Assembly: GCA_965221695.1 (NCBI GenBank)
Contig: OZ244905.1
Span: forward strand, 1,248,001 to 1,312,000
From: Gammaproteobacteria bacterium
Lineage (GTDB): Bacteria > Pseudomonadota > Gammaproteobacteria > Eutrophobiales > Eutrophobiaceae
Direction of reading: 5' to 3'
Length of the DNA stretch: 64,000 bases
Part shown: one piece after another, positions 11,967 to 20,140 of the stretch
How the letters are laid out: every line of letters begins with the position of its first letter
Position numbering within the stretch: position 1 is the stretch's first letter
Notes under the pieces: model-generated
Database searches by the model: none
What the model was told of the DNA's origin: nothing
The model's input: the letters and a program-made list of their open reading frames with translations, nothing else
Made by a program: the position numbers and the translations under genes

Positions 11967-12376
11967 AAAATCGTCCTGTTAACGAACACCGTTTTGACCG
12001 GCAGTTTGGCCGAAGCGAGTTTGAAGGCATCTCTTGCCAGCTCTTCCGATACACCTTCAATCTCATACAACACCTTGCCGGGCCGAATAACGGAAACCCA
12101 GTATTCGACATTGCCCTTGCCCTTGCCCTGACGAACCTCAAGAGGTTTTGTCGTTATCGGCTTGTCCGGGAAAATTCGGATCCAGACCTTACCTCCGCGC
12201 TTGACTTTACGAGTGATCGTTCTGCGAGCAGCCTCAATCTGGCGCGCGGTGATGCGTCCGCGGGTTGTCGCTTTGAGTCCGAACTCGCCGAAACTAACCT
12301 TGTTGCCATTGCCGGCAAGCCCGCGATTCCTACCCTTGCTCTGTTTTCTGAATTTAGTTCGTTTCGGTTGTAACAT
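11963..12376 (-). CDS. rplP: 50S ribosomal protein L16
   Basis: [11 protein letters not shown]; WIRIFPDKP. Confidence 0.99.
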
Positions 12377-12380
12377 GGGT

Positions 12381-13052
12381 TCAGCTCCCGATTACAGGCG
12401 CATCGTCCTCACTCTGGTCTTGCCCGTTGAATACTTCACCCTTGAATATCCATACCTTCACGCCGATAACGCCATAGGTCGTATTCGAGTTGGCGACACC
12501 GTAATCAATATCGGCCCGCAAGGTATGCAAGGGCACACGCCCTTCCCGATACCATTCCGAACGGGCTATTTCCGCGCCGTTCAGCCGGCCACTGACACAA
12601 ATTTTTATACCTAACGCGCCAAGCCTCATGGTATTGGTCACCGCCCGTTTCATGGCTCGCCTGAACATGATCTTCCTCTCGATCTGCTGGGCAACACTCT
12701 CCGCCACCAAGCTCGCGTCCAGTTCGGGCTTCCTGATTTCCTGCACGCTGACCTTCGCCCTGACTCCCATCATCCGCGAGACCTCCTGACTTAAACGCTC
12801 AATATCCTCCCCCTTCTTGCCAATCACGATGCCGGGCCTTGCGCTGTGTATGATCACCTTGATTTCGTTGGGAGGACGTTCGATCTGGATGCGGCTCACC
12901 GATGCGTTGACCAGTTTTTTTCTCAGATATTTACGCACCTGCAAGTCCGTATTCAGGTACTTGGCATAATTTTTCGAGTCGGCGTACCAGGTGGAAGTCC
13001 AATCCTTGATAATGCCGATACGGATTCCCGTAGGATGTACTTTCTGCCCCAT
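12381..13052 (-). CDS. rpsC: 30S ribosomal protein S3
   Basis: MGQKVHP; [15 protein letters not shown]. Confidence 0.99.
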
Positions 13053-13058
13053 GCTGTT

Positions 13059-13394
13059 TTACTCTGTTTTCTCTGTGACCGTTATGACCAGGTGACTCGT
13101 GCGCTTGAAAATCCTGTCCGCGCGTCCGCGCGCTCGGGTGCGCAAGCGTTTGTGGGTTGGCCCCTTGTCAACGCTGATTGCGCTGATTTTCAGTTCGTCT
13201 ATATCAGCAGCCTCGTTGTGTTCGGCATTTGCGATCGCCGACTCGAGAACTTTTTTGACGATGGCGGCGGCTTTCTTATTGCTGTAAGCCAGGATATTAA
13301 TTGCCCGCTCCACCGGCAGGCCGCGCACCTGATCGGCGACCAGGCGCAGTTTCTGTGGCGCCATCCGCACATATTTAAGACATGCTGTCGTCAT
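13059..13394 (-). CDS. rplV: 50S ribosomal protein L22
   Basis: SAIANAEHN; RARGRA. Confidence 0.99.
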
Positions 13395-13410
13395 GTTCTA
13401 TCGCTTCTGC

Positions 13411-13689
13411 CTACTTTGTGGTTTTTTTATCGGCGGCGTGGCCGCGGAATGTCCGGGTAATGGCAAATTCACCCAGTTTGTGGCCGACCATGTTCTCGGT
13501 GATGAACACCGGCACGTGGTCGCGTCCGTTATGTATCGCTATGGTCAGCCCGACCATGTCCGGCACTATCATCGATCTCCTGGACCAGGTCTTAATCGGG
13601 CGCTTATCACTTTTCTCCCTGGCAGTCTCTACCTTGGCCATCAGGTGATGGTCTATGAACGGCCCTTTTTTAATCGAACGCGGCATCAC
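13411..13689 (-). CDS. rpsS: 30S ribosomal protein S19
   Basis: PRSIKKGPF; MVGHKLGEF. Confidence 0.99.
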
Positions 13690-14510
13690 TGTTTCCTTTT
13701 ACGAATAATCATGTTGTCGGTGCGCTTGTTTTTCCTCGTCTTGTAACCCTTGGTCGGGTAGCCCCAGGGCGTGCACGGGTGCCGCCCGCCTGATGAACGT
13801 CCTTCGCCACCGCCATGGGGGTGGTCAACCGGGTTCATAGCCACGCCGCGCACCGTGGGCCGTATCCCGCGCCAACGTTTGGCCCCGGCCTTGCCCAGTT
13901 TTTGCAACGAATGCTCAACATTGCTTGCCTCGCCGATGCTGGCCCGGCAATCCAGCGACGCTTTCCTCACCTCGCCCGAGCGCAGGCGCAAGGTTGCATG
14001 TGAACCTTCCCGCGCAACCAACTGCACAGCCGCGCCAGCGCTGCGAGCGAGCTGCGCGCCCTTGCCGGGCTTCAATTCCACGCAATGGATGGTGGCGCCC
14101 ACCGGAATATTGCGCAGCGGTAAACAGTTCCCGGGCGCAATATCGGCGCGCGGCCCGGACATCAGGACCGCTCCGACCCCGACCCGCGCCGGGGCAATGA
14201 TGTAACGGCGCTCGCCGTCCGCATAACATAACAGAGCAATGTGCGCGGTGCGGTTGGGATCGTATTCAATTCGCTCTACCCTGGCTTCTATGCCGTCTTT
14301 GTCCCGCTTGAAATCGATAATTCGATAGCGTTGTTTAGCGCCGCCGCCCCGATGTCTTACAGTAATCCGGCCATGATTGTTGCGACCCGCGGTCCTGCCC
14401 TGCTTTTCGACGAGCGGCTGGTACGGAGCGCCCTTGTGCAGGCCCGGATTGACCACCTTGACCATGCCGCGACGGCCGGGCGATGTGGGTTTAGGGTTGA
14501 CTAACGGCAT
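13686..14510 (-). CDS. rplB: 50S ribosomal protein L2
   Basis: [17 protein letters not shown]. Confidence 0.99.
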
Positions 14511-14522
14511 TTCTCATCTCTC

Positions 14523-14819
14523 CTATGCGCCCATAAAGTCTATATCGAACCCGGGTTTCAGCCTGACGTAGGCCTTCTTCCAGTCCGGACGTTTGCCGGG
14601 GGCGCGCCGGAACATCTTGCTCTTGCCGCGCACGTTCAAAACCTGAACCGACTCGACTTCAACCTCGAACATTTTCTCCACAGCTTTTCTGATCTCCGGT
14701 TTGCTGGCGTCACGCATGACCTTAAACACGAATTGCCCGTGTTTATCCGCAGTATATGTGCTTTTTTCCGTCACGCGCGGTTCCAGCAGAACTTTCATCA
14801 GCCTTTCGTCAGTCATCAT
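14523..14819 (-). CDS. rplW: 50S ribosomal protein L23
   Basis: P.VTEKS; WKKAYVRL. Confidence 0.99.
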   Translation of the reverse strand: MMTDERLMKVLLEPRVTEKSTYTADKHGQFVFKVMRDASKPEIRKAVEKMFEVEVESVQVLNVRGKSKMFRRAPGKRPDWKKAYVRLKPGFDIDFMGA

Positions 14820-14860
14820 CCCGGCCTGTGCATTGTGTCTTTCAGAAAGTAATTCACAGT

Positions 14861-15052
14861 TTACCCTCCTGTTTCAGAGCTTATGTGCTGACTCGGGCGA
14901 AGATCCTGTTTTAGCAGCGGCCAAGCGTCTTCATAGGGCATAATATCTTCGTGTCCGTGCTTGGTAGAGTGCCAGTGGGCGTCTATACCATCCCACCCAT
15001 TTCCCTGAAAAACATGACCGCACTCAGGACATATCTTGCGTTCATCTGTCAT
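14861..15052 (-). CDS. Small C2H2-like zinc-finger protein inserted between rplD and rplW
   Basis: 63 aa with CPEC-x14-HWHSTKHGH. Co-oriented with the operon; the ATG overlaps the end of rplD and follows a purine-rich GGGGGAAAGGG. It fills an abnormal 222-bp rplD-rplW gap. Confidence 0.75.
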   Translation of the reverse strand: MTDERKICPECGHVFQGNGWDGIDAHWHSTKHGHEDIMPYEDAWPLLKQDLRPSQHISSETGG

Positions 15053-15701
15053 CTGAGCCCTTTCCCCCGTCTTCTGTCTTCTGTGCGCCTAACCATTTTT
15101 CTACTGATTTCAGGGCTGGCTTGGTTATCAGCGCCCGGTCAAACCCGATCAGCGAATAAGGATCGAGCTCATGGACGCTGATGACGGCCACGCGGGCCAA
15201 GTTACGGGTCGACAAGCGCAGTTCCTCGCTGATGGTATCGGTAATGATCAATACTTCTTCCAGGCCCAGTTCTGCCAGCATTGCCAGCGCAGCTTTTGTT
15301 TTGGCCGAATCGATATTCAATTTATCGATGCACAGCAGTCGCTCCTGGCGAACCAGTTCCGAAAAGATGGCGCGCAGCGCGCCACGGTACATTTTCCTGT
15401 TTATTTTCCTGGCGTGCCGACGCTGATTGTTTGTGAAGGTGACACCGCCTCCACGCCACAGCGGACTCCGGATAGTGCCTGCCCTGGCCCGACCCAGACC
15501 CTTCTGGCGCCAAGGCTTTTTTCCGCCTCCTCTTACGGCCGAACGGTTTTTCATCGACTTGGCCGCTGATCTGCCCGTCGCCAGGTAAGCAGTCAGCGCC
15601 TGGTGCACCAGAGGCTCATTGTATGCGACGGCAAATACCTCATCGGCGACGGTGATGCTTCCCGTCTGTTTCTTTCCCGCTTTGTGCAATACCAGTTTCA
15701 C
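15042..15701 (-). CDS. rplD: 50S ribosomal protein L4
   Basis: KPWRQKGLGRARAG..RSPLWRGGG; start placed at GTG 15701; short C-terminal extension. Confidence 0.98.
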   Translation of the reverse strand: MKLVLHKAGKKQTGSITVADEVFAVAYNEPLVHQALTAYLATGRSAAKSMKNRSAVRGGGKKPWRQKGLGRARAGTIRSPLWRGGGVTFTNNQRRHARKINRKMYRGALRAIFSELVRQERLLCIDKLNIDSAKTKAALAMLAELGLEEVLIITDTISEELRLSTRNLARVAVISVHELDPYSLIGFDRALITKPALKSVEKWLGAQKTEDGGKGSDDR

Positions 15702-15717
15702 CCTAGCCCTCCCGCAT

Positions 15718-16359
15718 TCAGAGCGACTTGACCGAAGGCCTGACAACCAGGGTTCCGCCTGCCGCGCCAGGCACGGATCCCTTGACCAGCACCAGGTTCC
15801 GATCCGGGTCAACCTTGATAACTTCCAGGTTCTGCGCAGTCTGTTTTACATTGCCCATATGTCCCGCCATCTTCTTGCCGGGGAAAACCCGACCGGGCGA
15901 CTGGTTCTGCCCTATCGAGCCGGGAGCCCGATGCGCGCGGGAATTGCCGTGACTATTGCGCTGGCTGCTGAAGTTGTGCCGCTTTATCACACCCGCATAA
16001 CCTTTTCCGATTGTCTTTCCCGTTACATCCACTTTCTGCCCGACCTGGAAAATCTCCACAGTGATGTCCGAACCGGTAGCGAATTCTTCGCCCTCGCTAC
16101 CATTCAGCCTGAATTCGTGTAAACCCTCAGCGGTCTCGACCCCGGCTCTGGCCAGCGCGCCCACCAAGGGTTTGTTGATCAGGCTGCGGCGTTTGCTCCC
16201 ATAAGCGACCTGCAACGCACTGTAACCACGCTGTTCATCAGTCGCCAGAGCGGTAACCCTGTTAGGGGTCGCCTCAATCACCGTTACCGGCACGGACTGG
16301 CCGGCTTCGGTAAATATCCGGGTCATGCCCCGCTTTTTGCCTACGATGCCAATCGTCAT
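15718..16359 (-). CDS. rplC: 50S ribosomal protein L3
   Basis: GKKRGMT; [15 protein letters not shown]; start placed at ATG 16359. Confidence 0.98.
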
Positions 16360-16428
16360 AATACTCACACCCGTTGCGAGCTCTTACCTTTGTTATGTAA
16401 ATTTTGCCAACTGACCTGCGCCCCACAC

Positions 16429-16517
16429 CATTCCTGGATAAACGGGAATCCAGTAGAACAAAGGGTCGCTCTCCGGGCGACACTGTATTTGACTGGACTC
16501 CCGCTGCTGCGGGAGTG
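16429..16517. repeat. dRS3/RPE-like palindromic doublet (ATTCCY-N8-GGGAAT type)
   Basis: cattcctggataaacgggaatccagt ... actggactcccgctgctgcgggagtg; a partial second copy lies at 57071-57125. Confidence 0.7.
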
Positions 16518-16583
16518 GCACAAGGGAATGCCCTGACCTGTGCCAACAGTTACATGCTTGTGCAAAGACTTGATCATGGAGGT

Positions 16584-16898
16584 TTAGCTCAGCCTGATCT
16601 GGACATCCACGCCTGCGGCAAGGTCCAGTTTCATCAACGCGTCAACCGTCTTGTCAGTGGGGTTGACGATGTCCACCAGGCGCTTATGAGTCCTGATTTC
16701 ATACTGATCTCTGGCATCCTTGTTCACGTGGGGCGATATCAGCACCGTATATCGCTCTTTTTTTGTCGGCAACGGGATAGGGCCTTTCACATGGGCGCCG
16801 GTGCGGCGCGCAGTCTCGACGATTTCCCGGGTCGACTGATCGATCAGCCGATGGTCGAACGCTTTCAATCTTATTCGTATAACCTGTTCTGTTGCCAT
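16584..16898 (-). CDS. rpsJ: 30S ribosomal protein S10
   Basis: [14 protein letters not shown]; GPIPLPT; SPHVNK. Confidence 0.99.
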
Positions 16899-16925
16899 GA
16901 TTTTTCGCTCTATAACCGGGTCTGC

Positions 16926-19031
16926 TCAAGCCGCTTTTCGTTTTGTGAGTTCTTCTGCAATCCCGGGAGGAACAGGTATGTATTTCAAGAATTCCATGGT
17001 GTATGTCGCGCGCCCCTGGGTGGCCGAACGCAACGCTGTGGCATAACCGAACATCTGCTCAAGAGGAACTTCCGCCTTGATTATCCTGCCTGCAGCGGAG
17101 CTTACTGTTTCCGACAGGATGCCGCGCCGTCGGCTCAAATCGCCGGTCACGGAACCCAGGTAATCTTCCGGGGTAACGACTTCCACTTTCATAACTGGTT
17201 CCAGCAGTGTTGGCGCGGCGCGCAGGGCGCCGTCCCTGAAGCCTATGGAACCGGCAATCTTGAAGGCCATTTCGCTGGAATCCACTTCATGGAAAGAACC
17301 ATCATACAAGGTGACTTTGACATCCACCACCGGGTAGCCGGCGATAATGCCGCTCTCCATCTGCTCCTGAATGCCCTTGTTTACGGCCGGGATATATTCC
17401 TTCGGTATGGCGCCGCCGACAATATTGTTGATGAACTCGAAGCCTTGACCCGGTTGCTGCGGCTCAATTTTCAATATGACATGACCGTACTGGCCGCGTC
17501 CGCCGGACTGACGCACAAACCGCCCTTCCGCCTTATCCACTGATTTGCTAAGGGTTTCGCGATATGCCACCTGGGGCCTGCCGACATTGGCGTCGACCTT
17601 GAATTCCCGCTTCAACCGGTCCACGATGATCTCGAGGTGCAACTCACCCATGCCCGATATGATGGTTTGCCCGGACTCATCGTCGGTATGCACACGGAAC
17701 GAGGGATCCTCCTGCGCCAGTTTACCCAGGGCAATACCCATTTTTTCCTGGTCAGGCCTGGTTTTCGGTTCCACAGCGACGGATATGACCGGATCTGGAA
17801 ACTCCATCCTTTCCAGAATAATGGCATTATGCGTCGGGCATAAGGTGTCACCCGTGGTCACGTCCTTGAGCCCGACAGCGGCGGCAATATCACCCGCCCT
17901 TACCTCGTTTATTTCCTCCCTGGAGTTGGCATGCATTTGCAGGATCCGCCCGATACGCTCTTTCTTGTCTTTCACCGTGTTCAGAATCGTGTCGCCAGAC
18001 TTGAGAACACCGGAATAGACCCGGAAAAAAGTCAATGACCCGACAAACGGATCCGCGGCAATCTTGAATGCAAGCGCCGCAAATGGCTCATCATCGGAAG
18101 ACTGCCGGGAAATTTCGGTTTTGGGATCGTTTGCCAGCGCGCCCTTTACGGCAGGCACGTCAACAGGCGCGGGCAGGTAGTCGATGATTGCATCCAGCAT
18201 GCACTGCACGCCCTTGTTCTTGAATGCCGACCCGCATAGCGCCGGCACTATCTCGTTGCTCAAGGTCCTTTTCCTGATACCTTGCTTGATTTGTTCCACT
18301 GACAGGTCGCCTTCTTCCAGATAGAGTTCCATTAATTCCTCATCCGCCTCGGCGGCGGCCGCCACCAGTGTTTCGCGGGCTTCCCGACAGGCGTCGATCA
18401 TATGCTCTGGAATATCTCCTTCGGTAAAGTTCATGCCCATGCTGACATCATCCCAGTGAATCGACTTGCCGCGCACAAGGTCGACAATGCCTTGATACCT
18501 GTCTTCTGCGCCGATGGGTAGTTGCAACGGCACAACATCACTGCCGAGGCGATCCCTTATCTGCTCGACCACCCTGAGAAAATCCGCGCCGGAGCGATCC
18601 ATTTTATTGATGAAGGCCAATCTTGGCACGTTATACTTATCCGCCTGGCGCCATACTGTTTCTGATTGCGGCTCAACGCCGCCAACTGCGCAGAACACCG
18701 CGCAAGCGCCATCCAGGACCCTCAGCGATCGCTCAACCTCAATGGTAAAATCCACGTGCCCGGGGGTGTCGATGATGTTGATCCGGTGTTCCGGATACTG
18801 GCCCGCCATACCTTTCCAAAAACAGGTTGTCGCCGCCGAAGTGATCGTGATGCCTCGCTCCTGTTCCTGCTCCATCCAATCCATGGTGGCGGCGCCGTCA
18901 TGCACCTCGCCTATCTTGTGGGAAACGCCTGTGTAATACAGGATGCGTTCCGTGGTGGTCGTTTTACCGGCATCTATGTGAGCCATAATGCCGATATTAC
19001 GGTAACGTTCTATAGCTGTGCTGCGCGCCAT
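16926..19031 (-). CDS. fusA: Elongation factor G
   Basis: AHIDAGKTT; RGITI; DTPGHVDF. Confidence 0.99.
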
Positions 19032-19056
19032 GGCTGAATCACTCCTTTACCTGCTA

Positions 19057-19530
19057 TCACCATCGGTAATGGGAGAAGGCCTTGTTGGCCTCAGCCATCT
19101 TGTGGGTGTCTTCTCTCTTTTTTATCGCGGTCCCCTTGTTCTCCGAAGCGTCCAGAATCTCGCCCGCCAGGCGCAGTCCCATACTTTTCTCTCCACGATT
19201 CTTTGCGGCATCAACCAACCAACGCATAGCCAGCGTTATACTGCGCTCCGCGCGCACTTCAATCGGAATCTGGTAGGTAGCGCCGCCTACCCGCCTGGAT
19301 TTCACTTCAACCACCGGCTTCACGTTATCCAGCGCCTCGATAAACACCTCCAGTGAGTTCTCCGTTTTTTTTCTGGCGCCGATTTGATCGAGCGCGCCGT
19401 AAACGATTTTTTCCGCGATGGATTTCTTACCACTGCGCATGACCATGTTGATAAACTTTGCCAGGACCGTATTGTGGTACTTCGGATCCGGCAAGATTTC
19501 CCGTTTTTCGGCTTCTCTTCTTCTGGACAT
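19057..19530 (-). CDS. rpsG: 30S ribosomal protein S7
   Basis: [10 protein letters not shown]; [10 protein letters not shown]. Confidence 0.99.
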
Positions 19531-19564
19531 GACAGGCGCTTAGCAAATGGGTGAAGTATTACGT

Positions 19565-19939
19565 TTATGACTTGGGTTTCTTTGCGCCGTACTTGGAGCG
19601 GCGCTGGCGCCTATCAACTACGCCGGAGGTATCCAGAGTGCCCCGCACCGTATGGTAGCGCACGCCCGGCAGATCCTTTACCCGGCCGCCGCGTATCAGA
19701 ATGACGGAGTGTTCCTGCAGATTATGTCCCTCGCCACCGATATAGGTGGTCACTTCATAACCGTTGGTGAGCCGCACCCGGGCAACCTTGCGCAGAGCGG
19801 AGTTGGGTTTTTTCGGCGTGGTGGTGTAGACGCGGGTACACACCCCGCGTTTCTGGGGACAACTGTCAAGAGCAGGCACATTGCTCTTTGCCCGTTGCCG
19901 TTTTCTCGGCTTGCGCACCAACTGACTGATTGTAGCCAT
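19565..19939 (-). CDS. rpsL: 30S ribosomal protein S12
   Basis: [10 protein letters not shown]; [10 protein letters not shown]. Confidence 0.99.
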
Positions 19940-20140
19940 GAATAACTCTTCGTTTTAACCTGTTGTAGTTAACCGCGCCGCATGCGTGGTTTCCAGCAGC
20001 GCTGTAAATCAGCGCGTCCTAAGACATACCGGGCTTACGCTGATTGATAAAACAAAAAAACAACCACTACATCGGTCGTTTTTTGCCGCTGAATGGAAGG
20101 TTGGACACTTGTGTCCTTCAGCTTCCCAAAAAGAAGCGGG

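What the first reader, a model, noticed from the sequence alone, without database searches (positions are those of the whole stretch)
14861..15052. Small zinc-finger gene embedded in the S10 ribosomal operon between rplD and rplW
Seen: rplD and rplW are 222 bp apart, and the gap holds a co-oriented 63-codon ORF, MTDERKICPECGHVFQGNGWDGIDAHWHSTKHGHEDIMPYEDAW..., with a CxxC...H/H pattern. Its start overlaps the last 11 nt of an extended rplD and follows a purine-rich tract. Its first five residues (MTDER) match those of L23, yet all four non-Met codons differ (ACA GAT GAA CGC versus ACT GAC GAA AGG). Established: rplD and rplW normally abut or overlap, and the S10 operon rarely carries extra genes. 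Inference: translational coupling would produce the protein at ribosomal-protein levels, so it is a candidate lineage-specific ribosome-associated or Zn-responsive factor, or else a passenger gene captured in a highly expressed operon.
Basis: partly seen in the sequence, partly recalled or inferred. Interest (0 to 1): 0.75.

Follow-up and report, generated by a model that had tools for sequence, protein, structure and literature searches.

The report
Foreign zinc-finger gene inside S10 operon
A small zinc-finger gene from a widespread but unstudied protein family was picked up by one bacterial species and landed exactly on the start of a ribosomal protein gene, so it is most likely a hitch-hiker in a highly expressed operon rather than a new ribosome component.

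Summary
A co-oriented 63-codon ORF (14861-15052, minus strand) fills the 222-nt gap between rplD and rplW and overlaps rplD by 11 nt. One detail is wrong: 3 of the 4 non-Met codons differ from rplW's, not all 4.

The ORF is a real gene. It belongs to a conserved family (332 clusters at E<=1e-3) that no Pfam, NCBIfam, PHROGs or PADLOC model reaches. The core is CPECGHxFxGNGWDGIDAHW(x4 or x7)HExxMPYExAWPL, and the predicted fold resembles a C2H2 finger (beta-hairpin knuckle plus helices).

It is foreign here. The family was found in 0 of 22 other species of the genus and 0 of 399 sampled genomes of the class. In 14 of 15 genus relatives rplD and rplW overlap by 4 or 8 nt. None of 160 homologue loci carries ribosomal protein genes nearby, and their neighbours and orientation vary. 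GC3 is 0.47, against 0.59-0.70 in the ten flanking genes.

The insert sits on the old rplW start (shared GATGAC; 12 of 16 nt alike). rplW now follows a 41-nt spacer.

Best reading: a horizontally acquired passenger, probably a nucleic-acid-binding finger. The domain is repeatedly fused to an RlmJ-like methyltransferase fold. Expression is untested.

The parts
14861..15052 (-). 63-codon gene X (P0001): a small C2H2-like zinc-finger protein of an uncharacterised family. Proposed zinc ligands are C8, C11, H26 and H34.
   Evidence: ORF and translation. Homologues. Conserved columns. AF2 model, pLDDT 83.3.
15058..15068 (-). Purine-rich SD-like tract (GGGGGAAAGGG) upstream of X, lying inside the last codons of rplD.
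   Evidence: Sequence. Duplex energy with the anti-SD motif is -8.6 kcal/mol.
15042..15701 (-). rplD (L4), GTG start. It has a 15-residue C-terminal tail ending GSDDR*, and its last 11 nt overlap X.
   Evidence: Pfam Ribosomal_L4 at 1e-60. Start codon. Tail comparison with relatives.
14523..14819 (-). rplW (L23), with two tandem ATGs (14819 and 14816). Its SD-like pairing is weak (-4.1 and -4.6 kcal/mol).
   Evidence: Pfam Ribosomal_L23 at 9e-31. Energies.
14820..14860 (-). 41-nt spacer between the X stop and the rplW start. It has no counterpart in genus relatives and no significant fold.
   Evidence: Alignment. Fold z-score -1.03. No terminator or promoter match in the spacer.
14816..14857 (-). 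Possible 13-codon relay mini-ORF (GTG ... TGA TGA). Its stop overlaps the rplW ATG (ATGA). This is an inference only.
   Evidence: Read from the sequence. GTG located at 14857, with upstream pairing of -10.8 kcal/mol.
14865..14870 (-). AGGAGG inside the last codons of X, 7 nt upstream of the mini-ORF GTG.
15038..15053 (-). Left copy of an imperfect 16-nt direct repeat (start region of X), 12 of 16 identical to the rplW start region. The first six bases, GATGAC, are exact.
   Evidence: Family D1. Only 5 of 2436 crude ORF starts in the genome match as well.
14802..14817 (-). Right copy of the 16-nt repeat (rplW start region), 236 nt from the left copy.

Best explanation
X is a horizontally acquired accessory gene. 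It encodes a stand-alone, roughly 50-residue C2H2-like zinc-binding domain. A beta-hairpin carries the CPEC knuckle; a short helix carries the first His, and the second His follows it; two more helices complete the domain. The family is widespread but patchy and appears in no curated family library. In an ancestor of this one species, a segment of about 230 bp (the X coding sequence plus about 41 nt of 3' flank) was joined by illegitimate, microhomology-guided recombination exactly at the rplW start codon, which used to overlap the rplD stop. X thereby inherited rplW's SD-like tract and its overlap with rplD. rplD gained one codon (GSDD* became GSDDR*), and rplW was pushed 236 nt downstream. 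X would therefore be transcribed with the S10 operon and translated by coupling to rplD (inferred, not shown). rplW translation probably depends on ribosomes arriving from X or from a 13-codon mini-ORF with a strong SD whose stop overlaps the rplW ATG (inferred). The most likely biochemical role of the domain is nucleic-acid binding, as a recognition module (inferred from the finger-like fold and from fusions to methyltransferase-type and nuclease-type domains). Its placement here is a passenger situation, not a ribosomal function.
For: Real, constrained gene:
- 146 hits and 332 clusters.
- In 94 aligned members H34, P9, F15, G17, G22 and I23 are invariant, and C8, C11, H26, W20, W27, Y40 and W44 are conserved at 90% or more.
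- Across 160 pairs with the window gene, non-synonymous differences have a median of 0.17 per site, while synonymous sites are saturated at about 0.93 (own crude estimator).

Foreign in this genome:
- The family was found in 0 of 22 other genus species by protein search and by profile search.
- It was found in 0 of 399 other genomes sampled from the class.
- The nearest homologue is only 76% identical.
- GC3 is 0.47 against 0.59-0.70 for ten neighbouring genes, and CAI is 0.60 against 0.66-0.79. Only 5% of 63-codon pieces of long ORFs in the genome have GC3 <=0.47.

No ribosomal link elsewhere:
- 0 of 80 and 0 of 80 homologue loci have ribosomal protein genes in their flanks.
- The 145 nearest-neighbour ORFs hit 111 different Pfam families; the commonest, DUF3800, appears 4 times.
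- Orientation relative to neighbours is random: 41 same and 38 opposite upstream, 33 same and 43 opposite downstream. Only 15 of 80 loci are co-oriented on both sides.

Insertion geometry:
- In 14 of 15 genus relatives rplD and rplW overlap by 4 or 8 nt (ATGAATGA type). One relative has an 84-nt spacer.
- Both ends of the relatives' L4 tail are recognisable in the window's shorter tail.
- The X start and the rplW start share GATGAC and 12 of 16 nt, 236 nt apart. A match this good occurs at 5 of 2436 crude ORF starts.
- There is no second copy in the genome, and no flanking inverted repeats longer than 11 nt.

Fold:
- The AF2 model has pLDDT 83.3.
- Sub-threshold Foldseek rows are mostly eukaryotic C2H2 fingers.
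- The PDB profile search matches only the CPECGxxF knuckle of designed C2H2 fingers.

Fusions:
- 34 of the 120 best homologues of a 236-residue domain carry the X domain at their C-terminus.
- That domain's model (pLDDT 89.6) matches RlmJ best: Foldseek E 3.8e-5 and VIA Z 10.6 with rmsd 4.2 over 205 residues, against 7.7 or less for the next fold class.
- Other members are fused to a class I methyltransferase domain and to DUF429.
Against: - No expression data exist: no listed run is on record as RNA. Transcription and translation of X, and the relay mini-ORF, are inferences.
- No donor was identified. One of them might lie in a ribosomal operon.
- The compositional deviation is modest (about the 5th percentile for a piece of this length).
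- The 12-of-16 start similarity was noticed after the fact. Family N-termini are often acidic/basic (MTEKRKV, MSDDKKI), so part of the match may be coincidence.
- No solved structure matches the X model significantly: best Foldseek E is 4.1 and best VIA Z is 2.7.
- Zinc binding and nucleic-acid binding are untested.
- The fusion to an RlmJ-like fold could equally be read as a hint of an rRNA-related role.
- Only species representatives were searched, so sister strains lacking the insert were not examined.
Confidence: 0.68

Rival explanations
1. X is a lineage-specific ribosome-associated or rRNA-binding factor. Made in step with ribosomal proteins, it binds the large subunit or its precursors.
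For: X lies inside the S10 operon with an 11-nt overlap and an SD-like tract. The same domain is fused in 34 of 120 relatives to a fold whose best structural match is the 23S rRNA m6A2030 methyltransferase RlmJ. C2H2-like fingers can bind RNA (general knowledge, recalled).
Against: The family is not found in 22 of 22 other genus species or in 399 of 399 sampled class genomes. None of 160 homologue loci lies near ribosomal protein genes. G000 has no copy of the RlmJ-like domain. The RlmJ resemblance is at fold level only, at 10-13% identity; the sequence stretch I take to correspond to RlmJ's DPPY motif reads DPDN (the RlmJ motif is recalled).
Confidence: 0.1
2. X is a recent, selectively neutral or mildly harmful insertion. 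It is tolerated but has no function in this host and may be poorly translated or not translated.
For: It occurs in a single species. Its GC3 and codon usage are not ameliorated. The contigs from three studies are identical, so they give no test of selection within the host. The same operon also tolerates a dispersed repeat between rpsJ and rplC.
Against: The ORF is intact and keeps every conserved family residue. Its start sits in a favourable initiation context. A purely harmful insertion upstream of eight essential genes would be expected to be purged (inference).
Confidence: 0.15
3. X is cargo of a small mobile element (a MITE-like element, an integron cassette at a secondary site, or a homing-type element) that targets gene starts.
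For: Homologues sit in variable contexts. Transposase-like ORFs lie within 4 kb in 8 of 80 loci (the IS1595 label is recalled, from N-terminal motifs). DUF3800 neighbours occur in 4 loci. A 6-nt exact, 16-nt imperfect direct repeat brackets the insert.
Against: G000 holds no other copy of any part of the insert. There are no terminal inverted repeats beyond chance-sized 8-11 nt arms. I saw no attC-like core by eye (not formally tested). Only 4 viral contigs and 1 of 72,556 plasmids hold a homologue.
Confidence: 0.05
4. X is a zinc-responsive factor, analogous to zinc-dependent and zinc-independent ribosomal protein paralogue switching.
For: Only the presence of a Cys2-His2 motif.
Against: X is embedded in a constitutive operon with no promoter-like site of its own. 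It shows no homology to any ribosomal protein. The family is unlinked to ribosomal genes elsewhere.
Confidence: 0.02

Closest known systems
Classical C2H2 (beta-beta-alpha) zinc fingers (Pfam zf-C2H2 clan)
   Same: The K-x-C-P-E-C-G-x-x-F knuckle matches designed C2H2 fingers. The model predicts a beta-hairpin followed by a helix bearing the first His. Most of the family has Cys2-His2 with H-x4-H.
   Different: The Cys-to-His spacer is 14 residues rather than 12 and holds an invariant GNGWDGID loop. Two extra conserved helices (MPYExAWPL) follow. The window's subclade has H-x7-H (11 of 210 members). No C2H2 Pfam model reaches threshold. X is a stand-alone bacterial protein, not an array.
Ros/MucR prokaryotic zinc-finger regulators (PF05443)
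   Same: Both are bacterial. The pattern is similar: C-x2-[CD]-G-x2-F ... H-x3-4-H-x3-[TM]-P-x2-Y-x3-W-x-L. hhalign aligns the two in that register.
   Different: The profile-profile score is insignificant (probability 0.3%, E 0.19). MucR has a roughly 55-residue N-terminal oligomerisation region that X lacks. No Pfam hit.
Small archaeal/bacterial one-domain zinc-finger micro-proteins (e.g. HVO_ families, YnfU)
   Same: Similar size, a single zinc knuckle, stand-alone genes with scattered contexts. Weak sub-threshold NCBIfam and Atlas look-alikes were found.
   Different: All matches lie far below the curated cut-offs (12-19 bits against 36-100). Those families use four Cys; X uses Cys2-His2.
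Extra genes inside ribosomal protein operons (e.g. secY, adk, map, infA in spc/alpha clusters; recalled)
   Same: A non-ribosomal gene co-transcribed with ribosomal protein genes.
   Different: Those genes are ancient and conserved across phyla. X is confined to one species of its genus and is of foreign composition.

Membership tests
Classical C2H2 zinc finger (zf-C2H2) | C-x2-4-C-x12-H-x3-5-H ligand spacing | tested here: not met
   The family consensus is C-x2-C-x14-H-x4-H. The window protein has C8-x2-C11-x14-H26-x7-H34.
Classical C2H2 zinc finger (zf-C2H2) | Beta-hairpin plus helix fold around the metal site | tested here: inconclusive
   The AF2 model shows strands at 6-7 and 14-15 and a helix at 23-28. 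Foldseek rows to C2H2 fingers have E of 4 or more and probability of 0.10 or less. Best VIA Z is 2.7.
Classical C2H2 zinc finger (zf-C2H2) | Match to a curated family HMM above its cut-off | tested here: not met
   No Pfam family reaches its gathering score for P0001 or for any of 94 members. The best is UPF0547, E 4e-4, below its 29-bit cut-off.
Ros/MucR (PF05443) | Profile similarity to the MucR zinc-finger domain | tested here: inconclusive
   hhalign of A2 against 9 MucR sequences gives probability 0.31% and E 0.19, in the expected register.
Four-cysteine zinc ribbon | Two CxxC knuckles | tested here: not met
   The window protein has a single CxxC. A subgroup (P0097, P0105, P0114, P0119) adds an N-terminal CxCC.
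Core S10-operon gene / ribosomal protein | Conserved presence at this position in relatives | tested here: not met
   0 of 22 genus species have the gene. In 14 of 15 relatives rplD and rplW overlap.
Core S10-operon gene / ribosomal protein | Homologues linked to ribosomal protein genes elsewhere | tested here: not met
   0 of 80 genome loci and 0 of 80 metagenome loci.
Core S10-operon gene / ribosomal protein | Physical presence in ribosomes | not testable with these tools
   This needs mass spectrometry of 50S or 70S fractions.
MITE / IS-type mobile element | Terminal inverted repeats, target-site duplication, multiple copies | tested here: not met
   Single copy in G000. Only 8-11 nt inverted arms. 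The 16-nt direct repeat is imperfect (12 of 16).
RlmJ-type methyltransferase (for the domain fused to X in relatives, not for X) | Fold similarity over the whole domain, and the catalytic DPPY motif (motif recalled) | tested here: inconclusive
   VIA Z 10.6, 205 residues aligned, rmsd 4.2. Foldseek E 3.8e-5. No Pfam or NCBIfam hit. The invariant motif reads D-P-D-N, not DPPY.

The most novel reading that the evidence does not exclude
X is an rRNA- or ribosome-binding zinc finger. In other bacteria the same domain serves as the targeting module of an uncharacterised RlmJ-like methyltransferase. In this species its capture at the rplW start codon makes it a de facto new ribosome-associated protein, produced in step with L4 and L23, and a 13-codon relay ORF has taken over the coupling to rplW. 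If so, this locus would be a natural, recent example of how the most conserved operon in bacteria recruits a new component.
Probability: 0.08. Interest if true: 0.75.

Novelty: new variant of a known kind. Interest (0 to 1): 0.4.

Why it matters
Three things are of use.

1. The locus is a clean, datable case of a foreign gene entering the S10 operon. The insert replaces the start of an essential gene instead of sitting in a spacer, so it shows what such an operon can tolerate and how translational coupling can be rewired. The same operon in this genome also carries a dispersed repeat between rpsJ and rplC.

2. It draws attention to a conserved zinc-finger domain of about 50 residues. The domain has hundreds of members in Alphaproteobacteria, Acidobacteriota and some Gammaproteobacteria, and no curated library used here describes it.

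3. The recurrent fusion of that domain to an uncharacterised RlmJ-like fold gives a testable lead to its function.

None of this is a major surprise. Orphan gene insertions are common, and there is no evidence that the protein has anything to do with ribosomes.

Tried and rejected
- Curated family libraries. Pfam, NCBIfam, PHROGs and PADLOC scans of X and of family members gave only sub-threshold zinc-knuckle hits.
- PDB by sequence. Only the CPECG knuckle of designed fingers matched.
- PDB by structure. Foldseek found nothing at E<=1e-3. VIA-align wide gave a best Z of 2.7.
- ESM Atlas. It returned only unnamed small proteins and weak zinc-finger look-alikes; no structure search was possible.
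- MucR relationship. hhalign was insignificant.
- Conserved neighbours. All-against-all clustering of ORFs in 80 loci, a Pfam scan of 145 nearest neighbours and orientation statistics found no conserved partner.
- Phage or plasmid carriage. 4 viral contigs and 1 of 72,556 plasmids hold a homologue, too few to call the family mobile-element-borne.
- RNA features. No Rfam match at E<=1 in 12000-20000. The X-rplW spacer does not fold better than shuffles (z -1.03). There are no promoter-like or terminator-like sites in the insert.
- Expression. No RNA holder is listed among the 9 runs, and the runs laid were contigs only.
- Formal dN/dS. NG86 gave saturated dS for the 3 ungapped pairs. My own per-site counts are crude, and some pS values exceed 1.
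- Class-wide survey of rplD-rplW spacing. Only the L23 half was run (369 of 400 genomes matched, 150 places listed). I did not run the L4 half, so I have no class-wide figure for how rare an intervening gene is.
- Script error. The script stopped with an error after 12 of 16 rows and mis-parsed two rows (the window and L011). The remaining distances were read.
- Literature. A search for the motif strings found 0 papers. Two searches on insertions in the S10 operon gave nothing relevant in their listings. One passage of PMC1924603 was read and was only an operon table.
- Unpublished genomes. The class tallies include four genomes flagged as unpublished (G325, G337, G170, G068). The '0 of 399' statement includes them, but no specific claim rests on them.

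Full report
[quoted passage not shown] The 222-nt gap holds a co-oriented 63-codon ORF, 14861-15052, whose ATG lies 11 nt inside rplD. One detail is wrong. Of the four codons after Met, three differ from those of rplW (ACA/ACT, GAT/GAC, CGC/AGG) and GAA is the same.

**It is a real gene of an undescribed family.** A word-indexed search returned 146 proteins at E<=0.01, the best at 6e-24 and 76% identity. An exhaustive HMMER search of 1.84 billion cluster representatives returned 332 at E<=1e-3 and 159 at E<=1e-10. Two of the listed hits are very long poly-finger proteins that match only the knuckle.

Alignments of 32 and 94 members give the core K-x-CPECGHxFxGNGWDGIDAHW-(R/K)xxHExxMPYExAWPL. 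H34, P9, F15, G17, G22 and I23 are invariant. C8, C11, H26, W20, W27, Y40 and W44 are conserved in at least 90% of members. Over 160 pairwise comparisons with the window gene, non-synonymous differences per site have a median of 0.17, while synonymous sites are saturated at a median of 0.93 (my own crude count; formal NG86 gave saturated dS).

No curated model covers the family. Pfam, NCBIfam, PHROGs and PADLOC give only sub-threshold hits to the CPxCG knuckle. A full-text search for the motif strings found no paper.

**Fold.** AlphaFold2 with the 94-sequence alignment gives mean pLDDT 83.3. The model has a beta-hairpin around the CPEC knuckle, a short helix at 23-28 carrying H26, and two further helices at 40-48 and 53-61. 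Foldseek against the PDB finds nothing at E<=1e-3; its weak rows are mostly eukaryotic C2H2 fingers. A Foldseek-independent search gives a best Z of 2.7. A profile search of PDB sequences matches only the CPECGxxF knuckle of designed C2H2 fingers.

The ligand pattern is C-x2-C-x14-H-x4-H in most members. In a minority it is H-x7-H (11 of 210 with a readable motif), and this minority includes the window protein and its closest relatives. I therefore describe it as C2H2-like and do not file it under zf-C2H2.

A resemblance to Ros/MucR that I recalled was tested. I collected nine MucR genes and ran hhalign. The register is the expected one, but the score is insignificant (probability 0.3%, E 0.19).

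**It is foreign in this genome.**
- The genus holds 23 species genomes. Neither the protein nor the family profile finds the gene in any of the other 22. Four of those 22 are under 90% complete: 77, 83, 88 and 88%.
- A weak hit in G030 (E 0.0047, 33% identity, two in-frame TGA) is not a family member.
- In 400 genomes drawn evenly from the class, only G000 has the family. One further genome could not be scored.
- The family was found instead in 164 stretches of the species-representative collection. By record titles these are mostly Alphaproteobacteria and Acidobacteriota, plus a few Gammaproteobacteria. It was also found in 95 metagenome stretches.
- X has GC3 0.47 and CAI 0.60, against 0.59-0.70 and 0.66-0.79 for ten surrounding genes.
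- Genome-wide, 63-codon pieces of long ORFs have GC3 0.653 +/- 0.10, and 5% are at or below 0.47.

**No ribosomal link elsewhere.** None of 80 genome loci (+/-4 kb) and none of 80 metagenome loci (+/-3 kb where available) encodes L4, L23, L2, L3, S10 or S19. The nearest neighbours are heterogeneous: 145 ORFs hit 111 Pfam families, and the most frequent, DUF3800, appears four times. Transposase-like ORFs occur in 8 of 80 loci (the IS1595 label is my recollection). Orientation relative to neighbours is random, and only 15 of 80 loci are co-oriented on both sides. Phage and plasmid carriage is rare. Elsewhere, then, the gene looks like an independent accessory gene, and the operon-embedded position is peculiar to this species.

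**How it got there.** I compared the junction in 15 genus relatives.
- In 14 of them rplD and rplW overlap by 4 or 8 nt. In the closest ones the sequence reads ...GAG GAT GAA TGA for rplD and ATG AAT GAC GAA AGG for rplW. One relative (G014) has an 84-nt spacer.
- L4 carries a variable acidic tail of 0 to 38 residues in the genus. The window's 15-residue tail resembles both the beginning and the end of the 31-residue tail of its closest relatives. The very end of rplD is therefore native.
- The window reads ...TCA GAT GAC AGA TGA for rplD (GSDDR*), with X starting ATG ACA GAT GAA CGC. 236 nt downstream comes G ATG ATG ACT GAC GAA AGG for rplW.
- The two start regions share GATGAC exactly and 12 of 16 nt overall. 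Of 2436 crude long-ORF starts in the genome, only 5 match the X start region as well.
- If the ancestral junction was ...GAT GAC TGA overlapping ATG ACT GAC, the insert entered right after ATGAC.

A recent duplication is unlikely. The two copies differ at 25% of positions, whereas rplD and rplW differ by only about 15% from the nearest species. The insert has no other copy in the genome and no meaningful terminal inverted repeats. I conclude illegitimate recombination at a microhomology, followed by retention. This is an inference. Family N-termini are often similar (MTEKRKV, MSDDKKI), so part of the match may be chance.

**Consequences for expression (all inferred).**
- X inherits the SD-like tract that used to serve rplW (-8.6 kcal/mol with a canonical anti-SD motif) and the overlap with rplD.
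- No promoter-like or terminator-like site lies in the insert, and the spacer has no significant fold. Read-through to rplW and the genes that follow it in the operon is therefore expected.
- rplW itself now has only weak pairing upstream (-4.1 and -4.6 kcal/mol).
- The last codons of X contain AGGAGG. Seven nucleotides later a GTG opens a 13-codon frame (-10.8 kcal/mol), and its TGA overlaps the rplW ATG as ATGA. This may act as a relay that restores coupling, but it could also be coincidence.
- No RNA run was available.
- The arrangement itself is solid. Contigs from two further studies reproduce 14816-15227 and 14855-15158 without a difference.

**What the protein may do.**
- Of 223 family members with the core motif, 87 are 80 residues or shorter, 99 are 81-130, and 37 are longer. 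The domain usually sits at the C-terminus.
- One architecture recurs: a 236-residue domain (NQYxGDxGDxxKYGLLR ... FADPDNGL ... YHHNTR) followed by a disordered linker and the X domain.
- The 236-residue domain has 641 homologues at E<=1e-5, and 34 of the 120 best carry the X motif.
- Its AF2 model has pLDDT 89.6. It matches E. coli RlmJ and a DUF519 protein best: Foldseek E 3.8e-5, and VIA Z 9.5-10.6 over about 200 of 237 residues, against 7.7 or less for other Rossmann methyltransferases.
- No sequence model hits this domain.
- Other members are fused to a class I methyltransferase domain and to DUF429. Further fusions (DUF4389, a chlorite dismutase fragment, a DfrB-like SH3 domain) look heterogeneous and may include gene-calling artefacts.
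- G000 has no copy of the RlmJ-like domain. Only 1 of 160 homologue loci has it, and there it is fused.

My best guess is a small nucleic-acid-recognition finger, at perhaps even odds. The RlmJ-like partner is the only hint towards rRNA. I rate a true ribosomal role at about one in ten.

**Verdict.** The feature is an interesting but modest case. It is a foreign, uncharacterised C2H2-like finger gene that replaced the start of rplW in one species. It comes with a plausible rewiring of translational coupling and a lead to the domain's function through its methyltransferase-type fusions.

Noticed in passing
window 16369-16583 (minus strand), between rpsJ and rplC: A second insertion in the same operon. 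The rpsJ-rplC spacer is 215 nt here, against about 4-33 nt in the 13 genus relatives measured. It is a dispersed repeat with at least 63 further matches in G000. Some matches form tandem arrays with a period of about 120-125 bp, for example around genome positions 2943037-2943725. Related copies occur in 15 of 22 other genus genomes. It contains a terminator-like hairpin on the operon strand at 16481-16465. A co-oriented 70-codon ORF (16365-16577) is probably spurious. No Rfam match.
   Followed up: partly
window 14816-14857 (minus strand): A 13-codon GTG-initiated mini-ORF preceded by AGGAGG (14865-14870). Its double TGA overlaps both tandem ATGs of rplW. It is a possible coupling relay.
   Followed up: partly
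window 15042-15090 and loci L004-L018: L4 carries a low-complexity acidic C-terminal extension whose length varies from 0 to 38 residues among species of the genus. In G014 (L013) rplD and rplW are separated by an 84-nt spacer containing ATGACTGAT just before the rplW start.
   Followed up: no
proteins P0222, P0237, P0235, P0221 and 641 homologues: A large uncharacterised family of about 236 residues with an RlmJ-like predicted fold. The motif is DPDN where RlmJ has DPPY (RlmJ motif recalled). About a quarter of the best 120 homologues carry the X-type finger at the C-terminus.
   Followed up: partly
proteins P0133, P0097, P0105, P0114, P0119, P0227: Family variants. P0133 has two X domains in tandem. 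A subgroup has an extra N-terminal CxCC and replaces AWPLL with FWxSLC, which suggests a second metal site.
   Followed up: no
proteins P0004, P0027, P0036, P0076, P0078: Many alphaproteobacterial members share an N-terminal extension of the type RxKFxxAARELECDEDEAAFxxxLKK that matches no Pfam or NCBIfam model.
   Followed up: no
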